Shown here in pieces: positions 6,527-56,406 of a DNA stretch of 64,000 bases. Both the position numbers and the translations under genes were made by a program. The notes below the pieces were generated by a model. That model was not told the DNA's origin. It did not search any database and saw only the letters and a list, made by a program, of their open reading frames with translations. This DNA is from Naegleria gruberi (lineage: Eukaryota): NCBI GenBank assembly GCA_000004985.1, contig GG738888.1; one strand, given 5' to 3'. How positions within the stretch are numbered: the stretch's first letter is position 1; every line of letters starts with the position of its first letter.

Positions 6527-6607
6527 TGCAGAAGGTGGGATTTGAACCCACGAAGCTTGCGCAGTAGAACTTGAGTCTACCCCCTTTGACCACTCGGGAA
6601 CCCCTGC
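6527..6607 (-). tRNA. tRNA-Leu (anticodon CAA), type II with long variable arm, 81 nt
   Basis: The reverse complement reads GCAGGGGTTCCCGAGTGGTCAAAGGGGGTAGACTCAAGTTCTACTGCGCAAGCTTCGTGGGTTCAAATCCCACCTTCTGCA. It has a 7-bp acceptor stem, a GTGGG/TTCAAAT/CCCAC T-arm and a GTAGA-CTCAAGT-TCTAC anticodon arm (CAA). Confidence 0.9.
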
Positions 6608-10930: not shown

Positions 10931-11001
10931 TCGGGTGTGGTATAGTGGTAGCATTCCAGACTGTCACTCTGGCGACCCGGGTTCAATTCCCGGCACTCGA
11001 G
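10931..11001 (+). tRNA. tRNA-Asp (anticodon GTC), 71 nt
   Basis: TCGGGTGTGGTATAGTGGTAGCATTCCAGACTGTCACTCTGGCGACCCGGGTTCAATTCCCGGCACTCGAG. It has a 7-bp acceptor stem, a CCGGG/TTCAATT/CCCGG T-arm and an anticodon stem CCAGA/TCTGG with loop CTGTCAC (GTC). Confidence 0.9.
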
Positions 11002-15412: not shown

Positions 15413-15485
15413 GCTGGCGTAGCTCAGTCGGTAGAGCGTTGGTCTAATAAGCCATTGGTCGCCGGTTCGATCCCGTCCGTCAGCA
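15413..15485 (+). tRNA. tRNA-Ile (anticodon AAT), 73 nt
   Basis: GCTGGCGTAGCTCAGTCGGTAGAGCGTTGGTCTAATAAGCCATTGGTCGCCGGTTCGATCCCGTCCGTCAGCA. It has a canonical D-arm (GCTCAGTCGGTAGAGC) and an anticodon loop CTAATAA. It is close to eukaryotic tRNA-Ile-AAT. There is one C-U mismatch in the T-stem. Confidence 0.88.
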
Positions 15486-17992: not shown

Positions 17993-18183
17993 GAGACGAG
18001 CTGTAAAATGTTTACAAAAACTGTAAATTCAACTACAGTTTTATTCCGAATACTTACCTTTTTCATTCAATTTTGAAACGTGATAAAGACTTTTGACATA
18101 TTGTAACTTTTTATTACTCCAAACTCAACAATTTTCACACCAACCATTTCAGAAAAAAAATACTATTCATCAAAAGCTTGGAA

Positions 18184-20562
18184 ATGAAAGTTGTTTTCCT
18201 TTTATTTCTGCTCGTATTGTTGTTGTTTTTTTCTCAACCTTCAATTGCCTCTGATAATAGCAAGCTCAGGAGAACTTTTCTAAAAGTAATTACTCAATGT
18301 TCATGTCAAGAACAAGTAACAAGTACTTTGGAAGACTTCAATGCATGTAGAATGGGTTCATTTAAATATCAAGGAGCGGGTGATCATGTTCATTTCACTA
18401 CTGAACTCGACCACAAAACTTATGTACTATTGATGAAGGATAAGTATGTAGTTTTGACAGCAGGAGGTGGTGAAGGTTTTGATGGAGTGAATGGTACAGT
18501 GTGTAGAAAACCTGGTTATGCTGGAGATGGTGATTTGGCCATCAAGGCATTGATGAATAGACCACTACACAATTCTATTGATCAAGTTACAGGGGATCGC
18601 TACTTGACTGATTCGCGCAATGACTGTATTCGAAAGGTTTCGAATCAGTACATTGATACTGTGGTAGGAACTGGAAAGTTTGGTACTGGTACACTTGTAG
18701 ATGGATTGCCTGCAACTAGTGTAAGCTTGGACAATCCAGTCAGCACAGTTTTTGCTGCCAATCAGCTCTTCATTCAAGAAGCAAGAGGAATTCTTGTGGT
18801 TAAGAATGAAATCATTTCCATCTTTATTGATCCAAAAGCAACAAACTTTGAAATCACAACATTTGGGGTATCTCCTGATGGTTCAACAGTTTATGTGGCC
18901 ATGCTACAAAACGGATCTTCCTATTTGAAGCAATATCACGAAAACGGCACTTGGACAAACATTATGGGAACATCAAAAAGACAATTAGAGGTTAGTGAAT
19001 TTGGACACAATAAGATGGCTTTTAATTCTTCTCTCTACTTTGTGTCTGATATAGTGTTTACTAATTATGGTACTGTTTATATAATTGACAATTACTTTCA
19101 CAATGATTCTTCATTGATCAAAGCCCAGGATCCAAGAATTAGATACCAATACTCTGCAATACATAGATTAGAAGTTGATGGTTCCTTTACCACTTTGCAG
19201 GTGTCTGATGTCGATACAAGGTTTAGCGATTTAGATGTTCATCCAGATGGAAATAGGTTTATTTATTCCACCAGTGAAGGGAAAACCCAGTCTTTTATTG
19301 CAGAATATGAGATTTATTGCAATGAAGGAAAAGCACTTTCAATCGATAAGAGAAGATGTGTTCCCATTTGTGGACAATATTCTTCTGAGCATCCAATGGT
19401 CTGTAATGGTCACGGTTCATGTTTAGACAATGGTTTATGTAACTGCACTGATGGATGGAGCCAAATTGACTATTGTGAAACTCCAATTTGTTTTGAGGAT
19501 TCCTCAGATTTTGGAGGTTGTACAGGTCATGGAAAATGCATTGGTCCTGATGAATGTGCATGTTTTAAAGGTTATGCCAGTAGTGAAGATGAAGAGAAAA
19601 GATGTCAATTTACACTTTGCCATGGAACACTATCTAATAATCATTCACATGTATGCTCAGGAAGAGGATCATGTGTAGAAGTAGACAATTGTGAGTGTTA
19701 TACTGTGAATGGAGCTCTAGCCTATCAAGGAGATAATTGTGAGTATGCTCTCTGTCATGGAATTTGGTCATATGATACAATGGTTTGCAGTGGAAATGGA
19801 AGTTGTATAAATCTTGACGAGTGTCATTGTCATAAGGATTATTGGGGAGACAATTGCCAACACAAATATAGCAACTCAATAATTTTGGGTGTTGCTGTTG
19901 GTGGTTGCTTGCTAGTGATTGTAATAGTATTGATTGGTATTGTTTGGTTTACTATAACACGCAAGAACAACAAATTAAAAGGTTCTAATCAACTCTTGGC
20001 CAATGAAAAGGAACAATTACTGGGTGATAAGAAGCAATTAGCAGGTTCTTATCAACGCTTGGCCAATGAACAGAATCAATTATTAGGTGATTACGATCGT
20101 TTAAATAAGAAATTCCAAGACTTGGAAAACCAAAAAAATCTCGAGATCAATATAGAACAAAATGGCAAGGTTGTCATGAAACAAATTAATCTAAAAGATA
20201 TTGAAAACAATGCAAACAGGTATATATCTTTTGACTACTTAGGTAATTTCGGTATTAAGAAAATTGCCGAGATTAACATGACAAGATCATTTCTAATTCA
20301 TAGTCGTATTTTCGATTATCAAAAGAATGAACAGATGAGCAATGTTGTTGAAATAATTAGCATTTTCACTCAAAAAGATGCTAACCATCCTCGTCAATAT
20401 ATTGCTTTGAGACACTATCCAAATGATAGGTTAAGAGAAGCATCCTCGGTAGTGAAACAGGCTATATTCACTTTAGAAGGACTTAAAAAAGCCTTCTTAA
20501 GCATGTGTTTAGAAATTTCAAATTCTAAAATAAAACATATTCTGTTGTGGTATTCAAATTGA
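18184..20562 (+). CDS. Type I membrane protein with tenascin-type EGF repeats and a cytoplasmic coiled-coil (~792 aa)
   Basis: True ATG at 18184, followed by a signal peptide (MKVVFLLFLLVLLLFFSQPSIA). There are about 6 Cys-rich EGF-like repeats (CxxxCxGHGxCxxxxxCxCxxGW/Y...C), a TM helix (ILGVAVGGCLLVIVIVLIGIVWFTI), and LLANEKEQLLGDKKQL / LANEQNQLLGDYDRL heptad repeats. Confidence 0.75.
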   Translation: MKVVFLLFLLVLLLFFSQPSIASDNSKLRRTFLKVITQCSCQEQVTSTLEDFNACRMGSFKYQGAGDHVHFTTELDHKTYVLLMKDKYVVLTAGGGEGFDGVNGTVCRKPGYAGDGDLAIKALMNRPLHNSIDQVTGDRYLTDSRNDCIRKVSNQYIDTVVGTGKFGTGTLVDGLPATSVSLDNPVSTVFAANQLFIQEARGILVVKNEIISIFIDPKATNFEITTFGVSPDGSTVYVAMLQNGSSYLKQYHENGTWTNIMGTSKRQLEVSEFGHNKMAFNSSLYFVSDIVFTNYGTVYIIDNYFHNDSSLIKAQDPRIRYQYSAIHRLEVDGSFTTLQVSDVDTRFSDLDVHPDGNRFIYSTSEGKTQSFIAEYEIYCNEGKALSIDKRRCVPICGQYSSEHPMVCNGHGSCLDNGLCNCTDGWSQIDYCETPICFEDSSDFGGCTGHGKCIGPDECACFKGYASSEDEEKRCQFTLCHGTLSNNHSHVCSGRGSCVEVDNCECYTVNGALAYQGDNCEYALCHGIWSYDTMVCSGNGSCINLDECHCHKDYWGDNCQHKYSNSIILGVAVGGCLLVIVIVLIGIVWFTITRKNNKLKGSNQLLANEKEQLLGDKKQLAGSYQRLANEQNQLLGDYDRLNKKFQDLENQKNLEINIEQNGKVVMKQINLKDIENNANRYISFDYLGNFGIKKIAEINMTRSFLIHSRIFDYQKNEQMSNVVEIISIFTQKDANHPRQYIALRHYPNDRLREASSVVKQAIFTLEGLKKAFLSMCLEISNSKIKHILLWYSN

Positions 20563-51412: not shown

Positions 51413-53836
51413 CTACAGTGTATCAACAACATCCCTCTTTCTATTTTGTGCAAAGAACAAATTCCTATGGAGTGTAACTTCATTTCGTTCAACAATGAAA
51501 CTCTTCTTGACCACCAACAAGGAATTCGATTGAGAGATAATTTCTTCTACTGAACATTTGCTTGGTTTGATCACAAACTCTTCGAGTGCTAGTGATTTCT
51601 TCGTGGTTCCTCTTGTTACTTGCTTGTAAAGAGGGGTGTGAATATTTGGATAGTTTTCTTTGAATTCATTGAGTAGGTCGAGTGCTGTCTTTCCTCTGGA
51701 ATTTTTCACAATGTCAAATTTCAATCCTCTTGCAATTAAAATGCTCATAACGTCCTCTAGAGCATAATGTGTTTTGCTCAAGATTTGTTGAGTGCATAAT
51801 CGAATGAGAAAATGTGAAATGTCGTCTCCCTCCTCTCCACCATACCATTGAAATCCTCCTGTTATTCTTGGAATATTTGAACTTTCTAATTTGAAATGAA
51901 TTGAATTATCCTTATTAAGAATAGTAATGTGAATAAGCTTGGGATGATTTTCGGTTGAGTAATCAAATCCAATTACGTTAGCATCTGATTTTAAATGTCT
52001 TTCGTCTTTTGATTTTAGTAAGAAATACATTATTCTGTTGAAACCTAAATTATCAAAGTAACCAGAAATGTTGATCGTAGGAGATTCGTTCCATTCAGCA
52101 ATAGAGGATAATAAATCTCTGTATAAATTAGTGCAGGAGTGAAGAAGAAAGGTACCATTATGATCTGGTGTCAGTAATATTTCTTCAGCTGATAAATTTG
52201 GAAGTACATTTTGTATGTCCAAATAATCAAACTTTGTAAAATAATGAATTAAATGCTTTCCATTTCGATCTCTGTAATCAATGTCTTGGTAAATTGAATA
52301 ATCAATTGTTGGATTAATTACTCCGGCTACTGCATAAAGAATAGCCAAATCAACTTCAAATCCATCCAATAATTTAAATGATCGAATACCATTAATTAAT
52401 TTCTCTATAGATTTAAAATGAAATATTTTAGTGAGTGGCTGGAATTTGAAATGATTCCATTCATTGGCAACAGCTATTTCTACTGGAGTTAATCCAAAAT
52501 TATTTTCTTCTTGTTCCAATTTATACAAAATATCATTGGGAATGTTTTTGGAAAATTGAGTGTCAGAATAAGTAAAATAATTAGAGCTGTTTCTATTATT
52601 TGTAAAAAAGTAGTGTAAAAAGTTGTTTCCATAAATATCCTTCATCATTATTTGTTGTAAAGTCATTGGTTTATCTTGGTTCTTTTGCATTAAAGGTGTC
52701 ACACCAAATACATCAGGGTTATCCAACGTGTCAAAACAAGAGGTTAAACCCAAATACGAAAAGCAATACTTTCCAATTTTGCTAAATCTGTTGACGAGTT
52801 CAGATTCACTTATTTCATCAGTGGGAAATAGTATACATCTTTTTACATCAAATTTAATAAATGGATATTTGTCAAGAATTTTCAATTGTTCCAACACTAT
52901 CCCCTTAACAATAAAAATTTTAAATTCTGGATATTTCAAATAAATTAGACATAAAATATCCAAAATGTTGTTACTCAGTCCTCCGGAAAATATAGATAAT
53001 ACTATATTCCAATAATGTTCAAAATATCCAATATCAATATCAATATTGTTAATGATGAATTTACAAGTATCAATTCTCTGAAAATATATTGAATAGGCAA
53101 GGATTATTTCTACATGAAATGGTCTCTTTCCCATTAATTTTGAAGCTTTTTTCAAGTATTCAATTTCTTCCATTTCTGTAGGAAAATTAGCACCAATACT
53201 TCTTGGAGCAAGTCCTCCAGATTCCATGAATAAATTTTGTTCATAAATACATGAGATGGTGCTTTGAACTAATGGATAATTCGAAACTAAATATTTCACA
53301 TTTTTAAATATCTTTTTTAATGGAATATTTCCTCCTCTCTTAGTCCAATAATTCTTTCCAAATGGAGCAAAACAGCTCACATACACCACTCTATCAAAAA
53401 CATTTTCATATCTTGTCTTGATTCTTTCCAATACTTTGTGTACATAATTATTATCTTGCAAACACTCCTCCGTATACAGGTTTTGGACACTCCTAATCAA
53501 TGTAAGAGATTCAAAATACGATCTATCAATTGGATATCTTGCCCAATTCTTCTTGTCTCCATTAATCATTTGTAGTTTAATTTCCATCGGTTGAAACGAC
53601 ACAAAGGCTTCATAAAAAGATTTACAAGTAATACACAGTGGTTCCCAAGAGTTGTATTCCGATAATCCATCATCCGAATACTCCAAATCCATCACCTCAT
53701 TAAAATCATCAATTTCCCATCCACGAACATTTGTAAAATCCAACACTGCTAATTTTCGAAGTCGGAAAATATCACGAAAATAATCCAAGTAACTGAAAAT
53801 GTGATGAAGGTTTTCGGGTGGAAGTTTGTTAATCAT
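51413..53836 (-). CDS. F-box-like N-terminus plus ankyrin-repeat-like hypothetical protein (~807 aa)
   Basis: Real ATG at 53836 (MINKLPPENLHHIFSYLDYF, F-box-like); the track start at 53872 is TTG. It has an 800-aa uninterrupted ORF with several ankyrin-like G-(x)-TPL/FLH segments (GVTPLMQ, GNNFLHYF, GLTPVEIAV, GKHLIHYF, GTFLLHSC, GKTALDLL). Confidence 0.6.
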   Translation of the reverse strand: MINKLPPENLHHIFSYLDYFRDIFRLRKLAVLDFTNVRGWEIDDFNEVMDLEYSDDGLSEYNSWEPLCITCKSFYEAFVSFQPMEIKLQMINGDKKNWARYPIDRSYFESLTLIRSVQNLYTEECLQDNNYVHKVLERIKTRYENVFDRVVYVSCFAPFGKNYWTKRGGNIPLKKIFKNVKYLVSNYPLVQSTISCIYEQNLFMESGGLAPRSIGANFPTEMEEIEYLKKASKLMGKRPFHVEIILAYSIYFQRIDTCKFIINNIDIDIGYFEHYWNIVLSIFSGGLSNNILDILCLIYLKYPEFKIFIVKGIVLEQLKILDKYPFIKFDVKRCILFPTDEISESELVNRFSKIGKYCFSYLGLTSCFDTLDNPDVFGVTPLMQKNQDKPMTLQQIMMKDIYGNNFLHYFFTNNRNSSNYFTYSDTQFSKNIPNDILYKLEQEENNFGLTPVEIAVANEWNHFKFQPLTKIFHFKSIEKLINGIRSFKLLDGFEVDLAILYAVAGVINPTIDYSIYQDIDYRDRNGKHLIHYFTKFDYLDIQNVLPNLSAEEILLTPDHNGTFLLHSCTNLYRDLLSSIAEWNESPTINISGYFDNLGFNRIMYFLLKSKDERHLKSDANVIGFDYSTENHPKLIHITILNKDNSIHFKLESSNIPRITGGFQWYGGEEGDDISHFLIRLCTQQILSKTHYALEDVMSILIARGLKFDIVKNSRGKTALDLLNEFKENYPNIHTPLYKQVTRGTTKKSLALEEFVIKPSKCSVEEIISQSNSLLVVKKSFIVERNEVTLHRNLFFAQNRKRDVVDTL

Positions 53837-55047
53837 TTTTTTTTGTAATTCGTCTTTAAAAAAATACAACAACTGTTTGAGGGAAACAGTTAGCGTCTTT
53901 GGCTAGAGGCCAGGTGCTAGCAGCACAGAGGTTGATCAACTACCAAAACTTGAGCATCGGGTTTAGAAGTCAGAGCAAATCGCGTACTCATATTAGCATG
54001 GAGGGTAATATAGTACAACTACCTTACGGTTCAAAGGTTTAAAGTAGATTTGGGTTGATCAATATGGGCAAAAATAAAATAGCTAAGGTAATAGGAGAAG
54101 TGGAGAGTAATGATTTAATTATGAAAAGAATTTGAATGTATTGTAAAACGAAAACACATTGGTTCGTTGATATTGGTGAAGAATTAATTATTAGCATAAG
54201 ACTTCCTGGTTAACTCTTATAACATCTTTATTAAGTGTATTCCTATTTATGGATAATCAAAAGGTTTAGTTTCGTTCCAAATCAAGCTTGAAGGCTAGGC
54301 GATAACTCCAATGTCTCTACAAAAGTCCCCTTCATTTTAAATAATGATGTATCTGTGAAAGAAGCGCTGCTTCCTGCGAACTGTTTACAATTGGAGATCA
54401 TTGACTTCACGTCTTTGAAGCAGGAATCTGAATAGATTCGTATTGTAAACGTAATAAAACATTACCAGATTTTTTTTTGTAATTTTTAAAGCTGCATTAT
54501 TTAAAGTTTCAATGTTATTAAAGAATTCGAAACTTAGTGTCAAGATTGAATTCTTTTATTAAGGGATTAACATCACTTGTTGAGTGGTGATTTCCATGAT
54601 TGAGAAGATGGAAAGTGTAACTTTAGTTTTTCAGCATTTGTCTGAACAAAAGTTTTTACAAAAGAGAGTTCTTCCCATTATTGACCAAGAGGTCTACACT
54701 TTTGGAAATGAGTAAAGAATAGAATAGCAGAGACGAAACCGTCATTGTCATACATTGGAACAACTGGTAAAAGAGTCAAACTTCTCTTTGTCATTGTTGG
54801 ATGATTTAGTAAATTGATAGGATATTTGTTGAGCTTGTGTTTCTGTGAGTGGAATCTCAACAGGTCTTTGACTATATCTAAATCAAACGATCACCAATTA
54901 AACCTCCAGAATGATCAAAAGCTCCAGAACATGCAAAGGAAGGATCACGAGTTGCAGTTTCAATTTGATTGCACAACAGAAACAATCAAGACTATTAGCA
55001 AACTGATGGTCTATTACAATGAGTTTACTATTTTACAATTAATTTAC

Positions 55048-56406
55048 TTATCTAATCCACAACCATCCCATCATGACACCATTAATAGGCATTGGGAGTG
55101 GGTTGTAATAACGGTAGTAATAAAAACCACTACCCTTACCATGAGGTTTTCCATCATAGGAACCACACATTGTCAGACAGTCAATACCTATACCAATCCT
55201 ACCATCTACAGTATCAGAAGTATCACCATCAGAAGAAAAACCAACTCTGATCTTGGATCCAAAGGAATCTTCACCTAGAGCATTGATATAACCAAATCTG
55301 TACCAATAGGCTGCCTTGTAATCGTAAGGAAGAGATCTCCATATACCAAGTGGCTTCTTATTAATTGGTTGAGTACCACAATTTGTTTGAGGTTCACATG
55401 TTGAAGTAGACATGTTGGTGGCATAGGATTTCATCATTCCATTGTTGGCAATCAAATTTCTGGCAGTATCGTACGAATGACTCCAAGAATTGTAATTTTC
55501 TAATGAATTCATAGCAAGTCTAGATTCTCTTCCTGCTAATTTATAAAAGAGAGGTGAGATGTAATCTTCATTGGCTGTAATATTTGTGAATGGTAATTTT
55601 TGTGTTCCTAAAAAGGATAAATCATTTGCAGTCCACATTGCATGGTCATACACGAAAGGAGAAGAAGTACTGGTTTTCATAATAAGAGTCCAACCACCTC
55701 CCATACTTTCCATATCACAATAAGCAGTGTAAATTGTTGGTCCAACATTGATTTGATATAATCCACTTCCTTCTCCATTGTAAGCATATGGCAGAGTTGG
55801 ATATCTGTATCCATAACATGATGTTGCTGTTGTTCCATCAGCAAAGGTTCTTCCCAAAATTGGATCATTAATTGTTGACATGTTTGAACAACTTGAGCCA
55901 CTAAACGATGTGAAACATAGACAATTATTGGATGAAATGCAAGTTCCATGTCCAGAGCAAACGGTTGGTGAATTGGCTGGAACACCATAGCATTCTACAG
56001 GAATATCACAATTTTCTCCTAAATATGTTGAACATTGAGCAGAGAGAATACTAATTTCTGATGAGAGCATCGACCGAGCAGACTCCTTCACTCGTAATTG
56101 ATGTTCTCTTTGAGCAATTTGCTCCAATAGCTTTGTATCATTTGCTTGCTTGAGAAATTCTATACCCTTTGAAATTTTAGCAATCGAGCATGAAAGAATA
56201 TCTTCTTCCTTTTGTTTGTCCTTAATATATCCCCTTAATCCGCATCCCTCACTCTCAGTATTTGTACATTTAGTTGTTGTTGGTGATGAGTGTACCACAT
56301 TCCCTCCCAAGAGACATGTCGCTAATATTACCAGAGAAAGAAGAAGCAGCGCAACTGCTTTTCTTCTTGAAATGATTGTCTTCTTCCTAGATGCTGGACA
56401 AAACAT
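55048..56406 (-). CDS. Secreted protein with a tenascin-type EGF module followed by a fibrinogen-related (FReD-like) domain, 452 aa
   Basis: True ATG at 56406, followed by a signal anchor (AVALLLLSLVILATCLLG) and a coiled segment. The EGF module is CYGVPANSPTVCSGHGTCISSNNCLCFTSFSGSSC. Next comes the FReD core CYGYRYPTLPYAYNGEGSGLYQINVGPTIYTAYCDMESMGGGWTLIMKT, matching the fibrinogen C-domain signature (VYCDM..GGGWTV[F/I]Q). The C-terminal half is divergent and lacks the classic NCA..GGWW. Confidence 0.6.
   Translation of the reverse strand: MFCPASRKKTIISRRKAVALLLLSLVILATCLLGGNVVHSSPTTTKCTNTESEGCGLRGYIKDKQKEEDILSCSIAKISKGIEFLKQANDTKLLEQIAQREHQLRVKESARSMLSSEISILSAQCSTYLGENCDIPVECYGVPANSPTVCSGHGTCISSNNCLCFTSFSGSSCSNMSTINDPILGRTFADGTTATSCYGYRYPTLPYAYNGEGSGLYQINVGPTIYTAYCDMESMGGGWTLIMKTSTSSPFVYDHAMWTANDLSFLGTQKLPFTNITANEDYISPLFYKLAGRESRLAMNSLENYNSWSHSYDTARNLIANNGMMKSYATNMSTSTCEPQTNCGTQPINKKPLGIWRSLPYDYKAAYWYRFGYINALGEDSFGSKIRVGFSSDGDTSDTVDGRIGIGIDCLTMCGSYDGKPHGKGSGFYYYRYYNPLPMPINGVMMGWLWIR

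What the first reader, a model, noticed from the sequence alone, without database searches (positions are those of the whole stretch)
55048..56406. EGF module plus fibrinogen-related domain in a secreted protein of an amoebozoan-type genome
The sequence SGLYQINVGPTIYTAYCDMESMGGGWTLIMK is a near-textbook fibrinogen C-domain core (VYCDMxTDGGGWTVIQ) and sits immediately downstream of a tenascin-type EGF repeat. This mirrors the tenascin/ficolin-like architecture that is usually considered metazoan. The C-terminal half of the domain is divergent: the Ca-binding and NCA..GGWW region is missing. It may therefore be an ancient or laterally acquired FReD variant. The neighbouring gene 18184..20562 carries the same tenascin-type EGF repeats.
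Basis: partly seen in the sequence, partly recalled or inferred. Interest (0 to 1): 0.55.

Follow-up and report, generated by a model that had tools for sequence, protein, structure and literature searches.

The report
Intelectin-like fibrinogen-fold protein in Naegleria
A Naegleria gruberi gene encodes a probably secreted or surface protein: an EGF module followed by a fibrinogen-superfamily head that most resembles animal intelectin lectins and belongs to a rare bacterial and phage-linked family, so the fold is real but not tenascin-like or animal-derived.

The parts
55048..56406 (-). Complete single-exon CDS, 452 aa plus stop. Naegleria gruberi; corresponds to the first 422 aa of public model EFC41119.1.
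   Evidence: ORF list. Exact-match neighbours identify N. gruberi, and cluster member P0157 = EFC41119.1. pN/pS about 0.17 against a 98%-identical metagenomic copy, whereas the 3' flank is only about 91% identical.
56302..56358 (-). N-terminal hydrophobic segment (residues 17-35, AVALLLLSLVILATCLLGG) after a basic stretch: a signal peptide or a type II signal anchor.
   Evidence: Highest Kyte-Doolittle 19-residue window in the protein, mean 2.57. Willaertia P0004 also has a hydrophobic N-terminus. No signal-peptide predictor was available, so cleavage is inferred.
56020..56235 (-). Putative alpha-helical stalk (residues ~58-129), shared with N. gruberi paralogs.
   Evidence: Helix in the (unreliable, pLDDT 32) full-length model. 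Aligns with EFC39678.1. The heptad periodicity test was not significant, so a coiled coil is not supported.
55888..55992 (-). Single EGF-like module (residues 139-173), tenascin/teneurin-like spacing except for the C1-C2 gap.
   Evidence: Pfam EGF_2 28.3 bits (cutoff 22.1); EGF_Teneurin 22.4 (below its 24.3 cutoff). Reelin EGF is the top PDB sequence hit. Cysteine spacing.
55051..55839 (-). C-terminal globular domain (residues 190-452): fibrinogen-related superfamily, intelectin-like fold, 'GWLWIR' microbial family.
55678..55818 (-). A-subdomain or 'GGGWT module' (residues 197-243: C197 ... SGLYQI ... YC230DM..GGGWTL). This is the only part recognised by PF00147 and NF040941, and it is the junction of the mosaic.
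   Evidence: PF00147 residues 212-246. NF040941 residues 211-242, 31 bits vs 30. C197, G215, Y217, C230, D231, M232 and G236-L241 are invariant. The paralog alignment stops at residue 242.
55204..55248 (-). Family-invariant acidic loop R387-VGFSS-D393-G-D395-T-S397-D398-TV-D401: candidate Ca2+-binding loop.
   Evidence: Invariant columns R387, G389, D393, S397, D398, D401. Placed on the canonical FReD FTTxDxDxD..NC loop by hhalign -mact 0.05 and -glob at low confidence. Metal binding is inferred, not shown.
55051..55140 (-). Last 30 codons (GKGSGFYYYRYYNPLPMPINGVMMGWLWIR), which the public fused gene model removes as 'intron'.
   Evidence: They contain invariant G425, G427, Y429, L449 and near-invariant W448. 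The same C-terminus plus stop is present in the metagenomic copy. The donor G|GTAAGG lies inside codons 423-425.
53854..55139 (-). The 1,286-nt 'intron' of public model EFC41119.1, most likely spurious. It joins this gene to the F-box-like ORF 51413..53872, which has its own ATG at 53836.
   Evidence: P0157 sequence compared with the two ORF translations. Junction sequences.

Best explanation
The gene encodes a secreted or membrane-anchored extracellular protein of Naegleria gruberi. It has an N-terminal signal or anchor, a helical stalk, one EGF module and a C-terminal globular head of about 260 aa.

The head belongs to the fibrinogen-related domain (FReD) superfamily. It is not the animal tenascin/ficolin type. 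It is a member of a rare, undescribed microbial family, always C-terminal in its closest relatives and ending GWLWIR. The predicted fold of this family is closest to the intelectin (X-type lectin) version of the fibrinogen fold and to uncharacterised cyanophage proteins.

The conserved core comprises the A-subdomain disulfide with YCDM..GGGWT, an invariant acidic FSxDxDxSDxxD loop, two further Cys pairs and an H..GxGxY motif.

By analogy with every characterised branch of the superfamily, the head most likely works as a Ca2+-dependent recognition module for glycans or other surface ligands. In a bacterivorous amoeba, the likely targets are prey or substrate surfaces. In bacteria it is carried on pilin-like or Cys-rich repeat stalks, and in phages it sits near tail-fibre genes.

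The gene is a mosaic. A Naegleria-specific cassette (stalk, EGF and GGGWT module) is shared with paralogs that carry other C-terminal halves. The C-terminal half was probably acquired by Heterolobosea from bacteria by horizontal transfer.

Shown: family membership, fold ranking, mosaic structure, taxonomic spread and purifying selection. Inferred: ligand binding, Ca2+ dependence, secretion and the direction of transfer.
For: Sequence family. Residues ~190-452 are conserved with Willaertia magna P0004 (42% identity, E 3e-60) and with Myxococcota, Deltaproteobacteria-MAG and pilin-fused proteins. There are 50 invariant columns.

Superfamily. PF00147 is hit in 17 of 18 members (best 8e-10). NF040941 is hit. 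hhalign to canonical FReDs gives 97.9% probability.

Phage link. BFVD S-CAM8 and P-HM2 proteins match at E 6.6e-10 and 4.3e-9 with TM 0.58. phrog_1325 matches nearly the whole domain of member P0162 (E 2e-13) and residues 29-189 of the window domain (E 9.6e-7). The module-bearing gene in S-ShM2 lies four genes after a tail-fibre gene.

Bacterial display contexts. These include PF07963 N_methyl pilin N-termini, MopE/TSP3 repeats, 2-3 tandem copies and bacterial-style contigs.

Mosaic. Residues 54-242 match EFC39678.1 (E 1e-40), and the match ends at GGGWT. Paralogs EFC41812.1 and EFC50543.1 have the same layout.

HGT. The clade of Heterolobosea, P0050 and one prokaryotic subgroup has 92% support in an NJ bootstrap. 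Willaertia is 52-57% identical to prokaryotic members but 45% to Naegleria.

A real gene in a eukaryotic scaffold. It has myosin, ABC-transporter and F-box neighbours and uniform GC of about 0.35. pN/pS is 0.17.
Confidence: 0.62

Rival explanations
1. It is a divergent but genuine tenascin/ficolin-type FBG domain: an ancient, vertically inherited or animal-derived EGF+FReD protein.
For: PF00147 is above threshold. The EGF spacing is tenascin-like in 4 of 5 gaps (PMC11401434). The order is EGF then FReD. Another heterolobosean, Acrasis kona, has EGF arrays with three full-length canonical PF00147 domains (212 bits, profile 4-219 of 221), so canonical FReDs do exist in this lineage.
Confidence: 0.1
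2. The family is ancient in eukaryotes or was transferred from eukaryote to bacteria. The heterolobosean genes are then the source rather than the recipient, or inheritance was vertical with massive loss.
For: The root of the tree is unknown (midpoint only). Two divergent members with EGF- or Sushi-like N-termini (P0032, P0156) could be eukaryotic. The GGGWT module is common to N. gruberi paralogs.
Against: Prokaryotic members are far more diverse in sequence, architecture and taxonomy: Myxococcota, CPR-like pilin fusions, a Deltaproteobacteria MAG and a giant protein in an archaeal-labelled MAG. The eukaryotic copies nest within one prokaryotic subclade at 92%. Willaertia is closer to prokaryotes than to Naegleria. 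The searches returned no other named eukaryote.
Confidence: 0.15
3. The head is not a lectin. It could be a protein-binding adhesin, a matrix or cyst-wall structural component, or a self-recognition module, as tenascin, angiopoietin and fibrinogen FReDs bind proteins.
For: Several FReD branches bind proteins rather than sugars: tenascin FReD binds integrins and TLR4 (PMC11401434), and angiopoietin-Tie2 structures are among the hits. The intelectin sugar-site residues are not demonstrably conserved. Bacterial and phage contexts imply surface recognition but not the chemistry of the ligand.
Against: The closest fold, intelectin, and most invertebrate FReDs are Ca2+-dependent lectins (PMC8185196, PMC9434060, PMC7858579). 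The invariant acidic loop suggests a metal site.
Confidence: 0.25
4. The locus is an artefact: bacterial contamination, or a pseudogene or mis-assembled fragment.
For: The closest full-domain relatives are prokaryotic. The public gene model is aberrant.
Against: The gene lies inside a 351-kb N. gruberi scaffold among eukaryotic genes, with matching GC. Its N-terminal half is a Naegleria-specific cassette. An independent metagenomic contig carries a 98%-identical intact copy with mostly synonymous changes. Willaertia has an ortholog-like gene on a 68-kb contig.
Confidence: 0.02

Closest known systems
Intelectins / X-type lectins (human ITLN1 4WMQ/4WMY, Xenopus XEEL, lamprey LSVL)
   Different: Identity is 14%. 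The C-terminal 150 residues have no reliable sequence alignment. The intelectin ligand-Ca2+ residues and aromatic box are not demonstrably present. The cysteine pattern differs: only three candidate pairs (197-230, 337-343, 410-414). This family keeps an acidic DxDxSD loop where intelectin has FNNERAAN. Intelectins are described only from chordates and, via PANTHER, placozoans (PMC12800186, PMC9434060, PMC6321704), whereas this family occurs in bacteria and Heterolobosea.
Canonical fibrinogen-related domains (Pfam PF00147: ficolins, tenascin FBG, angiopoietins, FGL1, tachylectin 5A)
   Different: Only the first ~40-55 residues align by sequence. The P-subdomain signature NCA..GGWW(Y/F)..C is absent. 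There are large insertions (domain ~260 aa against ~220 aa). The partner domains differ: no collagen stalk, no FN3.
NCBIfam NF040941 'GGGWT_bact' proteins and the prokaryotic GGGWT-module proteins
   Same: The window protein passes the model (31 vs 30 bits). Its lead-in (ADGTxAxSCxxYRYP...Y.G.GSGLYxI) resembles the bacterial proteins P0127 and P0136. The module occurs at 553 or more loci in prokaryotic species representatives, including Myxococcota, Bdellovibrio, Bradymonadia, CPR and DPANN.
   Different: NF040941 is a 46-position module only. Most prokaryotic carriers have unrelated C-terminal halves. Only 3 of the 80 best loci (L006-L008) share the whole domain.
Cyanophage proteins of phrog_1325 and BFVD models A0A1D8KMS1 (S-CAM8) and E3SSV2 (P-HM2)
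   Same: These give the best whole-domain Foldseek matches anywhere (TM 0.58, about 260 columns). Sequence-level homology covers most of the domain for bacterial member P0162 (E 2e-13). The genomic setting is next to tail-fibre genes, which is consistent with a surface-recognition role.
   Different: Function is unknown. Identity is 16-17%. tblastn with the Naegleria domain finds nothing in phage genomes, and a bacterial member finds only the GGGWT module.
Tenascins
   Same: The order is N-terminal stalk, EGF, then C-terminal FReD-superfamily head. The EGF spacing fits the tenascin-type consensus in 4 of 5 gaps (PMC11401434).
   Different: There are no FN3 repeats and only a single EGF. The C1-C2 gap is 10 rather than 3. 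No heptad signal was found. The head is not a tenascin-type FBG. Tenascins are restricted to chordates (PMC11401434).

Membership tests
Fibrinogen-related domain superfamily (PF00147 Fibrinogen_C) | Score at or above the Pfam gathering threshold | tested here: met
   22.9 bits vs 22.0, E 8.3e-5. This is marginal and covers only profile positions 14-50 of 221. 17 of 18 family members hit, best 8.3e-10.
Fibrinogen-related domain superfamily (PF00147 Fibrinogen_C) | A-subdomain: first Cys pair and the (V/A)YCDM..GGGWT(V/L) core | tested here: met
   C197, C230, D231, M232 and G236-L241 are invariant in the family. They align with fibrinogen, angiopoietin and ficolin sequences.
Fibrinogen-related domain superfamily (PF00147 Fibrinogen_C) | P-subdomain signature NCA...G(G/A)WW(Y/F)..C | tested here: not met
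   No such motif is in the sequence. There is no HMM alignment beyond profile position 50. Only a loosely similar C410-x3-C414 ... G425-S-G427-F-Y429 exists.
Fibrinogen-related domain superfamily (PF00147 Fibrinogen_C) | Ca2+ loop D-x-D-x-D preceding the NCA cysteine | tested here: inconclusive
   The invariant D393-x-D395-x-S397-D398 is placed on FTTxDxDxD by hhalign -mact 0.05 and -glob, but with column confidence near 0. No coordinates were available to check the geometry.
Fibrinogen-related domain superfamily (PF00147 Fibrinogen_C) | Fold similarity to solved FReDs | tested here: met
Intelectin / X-type lectin | Intelectin-type decorated fibrinogen fold over the whole CRD | tested here: met
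Intelectin / X-type lectin | Sequence homology beyond the generic GGGWT core | tested here: met
   hhalign of A2 vs the intelectin alignment gives 97.8% probability, E 1.1e-12 and 90 columns, including W..DDYKNPGYYDI aligned to W..QDYVSxAFYxL. This covers only the N-terminal ~100 residues.
Intelectin / X-type lectin | Ligand-binding Ca2+ ligands (hITLN1 N260, E262, E274; H263) and aromatic box (W288, Y297) | tested here: inconclusive
   The residue names are taken from PMC12800186, PMC9434060 and my own knowledge of Wesener 2015. Permissive local and global hhalign alignments of the C-terminal half disagree. No conserved N/E pair is evident. Model coordinates could not be inspected.
Intelectin / X-type lectin | Animal (chordate or placozoan) distribution and orthology | tested here: not met
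   The relatives are Heterolobosea, Myxococcota, other bacteria, MAGs and phages. Identity to intelectin is 14%. It therefore resembles an intelectin in fold but is not a member of the intelectin family.
Tenascin | Heptad/coiled-coil assembly region + tenascin-type EGF repeats + FN3 repeats + C-terminal FReD | tested here: not met
   No FN3 hit. A single EGF with a C1-C2 gap of 10 instead of 3. The heptad test was not significant.
Ficolin | Collagen-like Gly-X-Y stalk + canonical FBG | tested here: not met
NCBIfam NF040941 GGGWT_bact (fibrinogen-like YCDxxxxGGGW domain) | Score at or above the curated cutoff | tested here: met
   31.0 bits vs 30, residues 211-242.
'GWLWIR' family (defined here: alignment A2) / phrog_1325 | End-to-end conservation of the ~245-aa domain, including W258, D281..F287-Y288, W308-x-H310, R370-F-G-Y373, R387..D401, C410/C414, H422, G425/G427/Y429 and a C-terminal hydrophobic strand followed by R | tested here: met
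   All are invariant across 11 sequences and most across 18. Identity to members is 31-45%. phrog_1325 matches residues 29-189 of the domain at E 9.6e-7.

The most novel reading that the evidence does not exclude
The 'GGGWT module plus exchangeable C-terminal half' would be an ancient prokaryotic and phage receptor-binding design, and the GWLWIR/phrog_1325 family would be the closest microbial relative of animal intelectins. On this reading, the intelectin (X-type lectin) branch of innate immunity, and perhaps animal FReDs in general, descend from bacterial or phage adhesin heads. Heterolobosean amoebae would have independently recruited the same head, by transfer from prey bacteria, onto a eukaryotic EGF stalk for recognising microbes.
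Probability: 0.2. Interest if true: 0.7.

Novelty: new variant of a known kind. Interest (0 to 1): 0.45.

Why it matters
Fibrinogen-related and intelectin lectins are treated in the literature as animal innate-immunity inventions: 'FReDs ... in all metazoan phyla' (PMC11401434) and intelectins 'throughout chordates' (PMC9434060). This locus belongs to a coherent but unnamed microbial family that spans bacteria, phage-like proteins and heterolobosean amoebae. Its predicted fold is nearer to intelectin than to any other solved structure.

If the head binds microbial glycans, it would be a protist pattern-recognition lectin built from a bacterial part. It would also give a tractable system (Naegleria, Willaertia, Myxococcota) for asking where the intelectin fold came from.

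In practical terms, the result corrects a chimeric public gene model (EFC41119.1). It also shows that Pfam recognises only about 15% of this domain, so such proteins are systematically under-annotated.

Tried and rejected
- **Full-length representative search.** It was swamped by EGF-repeat proteins.
- **Full-length AF2 model.** It failed (pLDDT 32, pTM 0.22) and was not used except as a weak hint of a helix at residues 58-129.
- **Coiled coil.** In a crude heptad a/d hydrophobicity test against 5000 shuffles, about 40-50% of shuffles scored at least as high as the real sequence. The 'coiled-coil oligomer like ficolin/tenascin' idea was therefore dropped.
- **AFDB fold search.** The library was unavailable.
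- **The search for related loci with the broad alignment A2.** It failed because no conserved stretch was found. A tighter alignment, A4, worked, but its patterns mostly recover the GGGWT module rather than the full family.
- **tblastn against phage genomes.** The Naegleria domain found no match. A bacterial member found only the 33-43-residue module.
- **Mapping intelectin ligand residues by profile alignment.** The local-permissive and global alignments disagree, so this was abandoned as inconclusive.
- **Papers not held.** Wesener 2015 (PMC4526365) and Doolittle 2012 (PMC3575912) were unavailable. No paper links fibrinogen-related domains with Naegleria, and the Acrasis genome paper mentions neither fibrinogen, tenascin, EGF nor lectin.
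- **Contamination or pseudogene.** Rejected on genomic context, the shared Naegleria cassette and pN/pS.
- **Biopython bootstrapping.** It timed out and was replaced by a numpy NJ implementation. No ML tree software was available.
Full report
**1. Observation**

The window holds an uninterrupted ATG-to-stop ORF of 452 aa at exactly 55048..56406 on the minus strand. The quoted peptide is residues 213-243. Pfam finds EGF_2 at residues 148-173 (28.3 bits, cutoff 22.1). It finds Fibrinogen_C (PF00147) at 22.9 bits against a cutoff of 22.0, but only for residues 212-246, which are profile positions 14-50 of 221. NCBIfam NF040941, 'GGGWT_bact: fibrinogen-like YCDxxxxGGGW domain', also just passes (31 vs 30 bits). 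Single-sequence PDB hits are weak and confined to residues ~207-268. They include angiopoietin-like proteins, fibrinogen, tachylectin 5A and intelectins. The motifs are therefore real, but on this evidence alone the 'FReD' would be a 40-residue match.

**2. Organism and gene model**

Two other ORFs of the window are exact matches to Naegleria gruberi proteins EFC41105.1 and EFC41037.1 on a 351,708-bp scaffold. The neighbours include a myosin, an ABC transporter, Sel1 and F-box-like proteins, and GC is uniform at about 0.31-0.38. The genome is thus a heterolobosean (Discoba), not an amoebozoan.

The public model EFC41119.1 (1235 aa, 'predicted protein') equals residues 1-422 of this ORF spliced to the downstream ORF 51413..53872. 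That splice uses a G|GTAAGG donor lying inside codons 423-425 and an AG acceptor at 53854. It creates a 1,286-nt intron that removes 30 codons plus the stop. The downstream ORF has its own ATG at 53836.

The removed codons carry family-invariant residues (G425, G427, Y429, L449) and the C-terminal GWLWIR shared by the homologs. A 98%-identical metagenomic copy ends at the same stop. I conclude that the fused model is a chimera and the 452-aa single-exon gene is correct.

Against that metagenomic copy the coding region differs at 13 of 1080 nt (8 synonymous, 5 non-synonymous; pN/pS about 0.17), whereas the 3' flank is about 91% identical. The numbers are small but consistent with purifying selection.

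**3. The C-terminal ~260 aa is one conserved domain**

Homology searches recover a small family in which residues ~190-452 are conserved end to end at 31-46% identity.

- *Willaertia magna* ABK040_016019 (P0004) aligns at 42% identity, E 3e-60.
- Some members have prepilin N-methylation N-termini (PF07963).
- Some have Cys-rich MopE/TSP3 repeat stalks.
- Some carry two or three tandem copies.

Named sources are a Myxococcota bacterium (MCK6550638.1), a Deltaproteobacteria MAG and Myxococcales MAGs. The contigs look bacterial.

Fifty columns are invariant across 11 sequences. They include C197/C230, the GGGWTL core, W258, D281, F287-Y288, W308-x-H310, R370-F-G-Y373, the acidic loop R387...D393...S397-D398...D401, C410/C414, H422 and G425/G427/Y429.

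The family is rare. A profile search of 5.8 billion proteins gave 19 hits at the E <= 1e-5 cutoff used, and only about 15 of these cover the family's C-terminal half; the weakest hits match only the GGGWT module.

**4. What fold**

A domain-only AF2 model built on an 18-sequence alignment is usable (mean pLDDT 75.6, pTM 0.80).

Foldseek also ranks intelectins first, but with low TM of 0.33-0.36.

Sequence profiles agree with the structural ranking. The best PDB hits of the family profile are XEEL, lamprey LSVL and ITLN1 (4.6e-11 to 9e-10). hhalign against an intelectin alignment, whose sequences were verified from the PDB, gives 97.8% probability over 90 columns. That alignment runs past GGGWT through the intelectin segment W..SDDYKNPGYYDI, which aligns to W..QDYVSxAFYxL.

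[quoted passage not shown] The Naegleria head resembles that decorated version.

In the viral structure library, two uncharacterised cyanophage proteins match even better: S-CAM8 A0A1D8KMS1 and P-HM2 E3SSV2, TM 0.58, E <= 4e-9. phrog_1325 (function unknown) matches the window domain (E 9.6e-7) and nearly the whole domain of bacterial member P0162 (E 2e-13).

**5. Is the Ca2+ site missing?**

The canonical NCA..GGWW signature is not recognisable. However, the invariant loop GFS(S/G)-D-x-D-x-S-D-x-x-D is placed on the canonical FTTxDxDxD...NC loop by both permissive-local and global hhalign against canonical FReDs. Column confidence there is near zero, so this is a hypothesis, not a result.

Mapping of the intelectin ligand residues failed, because alternative alignments disagree. 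Metal and sugar binding therefore remain inferred.

**6. Mosaic architecture**

Residues 54-242 (stalk, EGF and the A-subdomain up to GGGWT) align with N. gruberi EFC39678.1 at 38% identity (E 1e-40). The alignment stops right after GGGWT. Residues 190-452 align with Willaertia, whose N-terminal part is unrelated.

Two further N. gruberi proteins, EFC41812.1 and EFC50543.1, have the same N-terminal layout with other C-terminal halves.

The same pattern holds in prokaryotes. Carriers include Myxococcota, *Bdellovibrio bacteriovorus*, Bradymonadia, Bacteriovorax, CPR/Patescibacteria, Bacteroidota and DPANN archaea. Only three of the 80 best loci share the full domain.

The superfamily thus behaves as a constant N-terminal module joined to variable, or rapidly diverging, C-terminal halves.

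**7. Origin**

I built a neighbour-joining tree of 41 domain copies (241 columns, 300 bootstraps). It groups Naegleria, Willaertia, P0050 and one prokaryotic subgroup (pilin-fused and Myxococcales MopE-repeat proteins) at 92%. Other Myxococcota-like multi-copy proteins fall outside this clade.

Naegleria+Willaertia monophyly has only 62% support. Willaertia is 52-57% identical to prokaryotic members but 45% to Naegleria.

The result favours transfer from bacteria into Heterolobosea, followed by fusion to a resident cassette. The method is crude and the root is unknown. Two divergent members with EGF- or Sushi-like N-termini (P0032, P0156; metagenomic, unnamed) might be other eukaryotes.

**8. 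Mechanism (inferred)**

- The N-terminus has a basic stretch followed by a 19-residue hydrophobic segment. This is a signal peptide or a type II anchor.
- The mature part has 17 cysteines and four N-glycosylation sequons, which is typical of an extracellular protein.
- A coiled coil is not supported.

The head most likely recognises a surface ligand. Three lines of reasoning support this. Every characterised branch of the superfamily is a recognition module, and the nearest fold is a Ca2+-dependent lectin for microbial glycans (PMC8185196, PMC12800186). The bacterial relatives are mounted on pilin-like or repeat stalks. The phage relatives sit beside tail-fibre genes.

For a bacterivorous amoeba, binding of prey or substrate is the simplest role. 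Protein binding or a structural role cannot be excluded.

**9. Comparison and novelty**

- It works like, and folds most like, an intelectin. It is not a member of the intelectin family: identity is 14%, ligand-site conservation was not shown, and the distribution is non-animal.
- It is a member of the FReD superfamily but fails the canonical P-subdomain signature.
- It is not a tenascin or ficolin, because FN3 and collagen regions are absent.
- The sequence itself is public, as part of a mis-fused 'predicted protein'.
- The short module is known to NCBIfam.
- I found no paper describing FReD or intelectin-like proteins in Naegleria, nor this family.

I rate it a new variant of a known kind, of moderate interest.

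Noticed in passing
window 51413..56406 (-): Public N. gruberi gene model EFC41119.1 / XP_002673863.1 (NAEGRDRAFT_58918, 1235 aa) is most likely a chimera of two genes: the lectin-like ORF and an F-box-like ORF. They are joined through a chance GTAAGG donor at 55139 and an AG acceptor at 53854 (a 1,286-nt 'intron'). This deletes 30 conserved codons.
   Followed up: yes
L001 1-108 vs window ~56290-56406: The 98%-identical metagenomic Naegleria contig (ENA ERZ929261) does not align with the window upstream of residue ~41 and has an in-frame stop there. Either that contig end is chimeric, or the 5' exon and signal region differ between strains. The N-terminus of the window gene is therefore less certain than the rest.
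   Followed up: partly
P0086 (Acrasis kona KAL0489149.1) and P0063 (KAL0489766.1, 'tenascin-X, partial'): Another heterolobosean, Acrasis kona, encodes huge EGF-array proteins. P0086 carries three full-length canonical Fibrinogen_C domains (212 bits, profile 4-219 of 221, with GGWWYS.CH motifs). P0063 combines C-type-lectin-like regions, EGF arrays and a YCDMSKDFGGWT module. This is a genuinely tenascin-like EGF+FReD combination outside animals, and the Acrasis genome paper does not mention it.
   Followed up: partly
N. gruberi EFC39678.1 (P0076), EFC41812.1 (P0182/P0057), EFC50543.1 (P0147): These form a Naegleria-specific paralog set with the same cassette: signal, C..GCG.R motif, helical stalk, EGF(s), and SG.Y.IKP..YC.M..GGG. 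Each has a different, unrecognisable C-terminal half ending in (F/Y)(I/L)R. This suggests a family of recognition proteins with swapped or fast-evolving heads.
   Followed up: partly
It is conspicuous in predatory or epibiotic lineages (Myxococcota, Bdellovibrio bacteriovorus complete genomes, Bradymonadia, Bacteriovorax, CPR/Patescibacteria, DPANN archaea). Enrichment was not tested statistically.
   Followed up: no
L085 5656-6732 (Synechococcus phage S-ShM2 SShM2_035) and family members: Several GGGWT-module proteins, including the cyanophage one (30.3 bits vs cutoff 26.2), also hit Pfam COLFI, the fibrillar collagen C-propeptide. This points to a shared ancestry between the FReD A-subdomain and the collagen C-propeptide 'SGxYWIDPN..YCDF' segment. 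The phage gene lies four genes after an annotated tail-fibre gene.
   Followed up: partly
P0032, P0156 (JGI metagenome contigs of ~3 kb): These are divergent family members with two or three tandem heads that lack the C337/C343 and C410/C414 pairs. Their N-termini are EGF-like (P0032) or Sushi/CCP-like (P0156). They are possibly from other eukaryotes, but the source is unknown.
   Followed up: no
L006 (contig CAYONI010000028.1, 'Methanosarcinales archaeon' MAG, 6.3 kb): Here the domain is internal to an ORF of more than 2,000 aa that has FG-GAP-like repeats and runs off the contig. It is 71% identical to the pilin-fused member P0009. The archaeal binning of this short contig is doubtful.
   Followed up: no
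window 18178..20562 (+): This 794-aa ORF has an N-terminal hydrophobic signal and one EGF module (residue 526) whose cysteine spacing is identical to the target's. It has no GGGW motif. It is 35 kb from the target, so it is not a functional neighbour.
   Followed up: partly
window 6527..6607 (-), 10931..11001 (+), 15413..15485 (+): Three tRNA genes (Leu-CAA, Asp-GTC, Ile-AAT) are scattered among the protein-coding genes.
   Followed up: no
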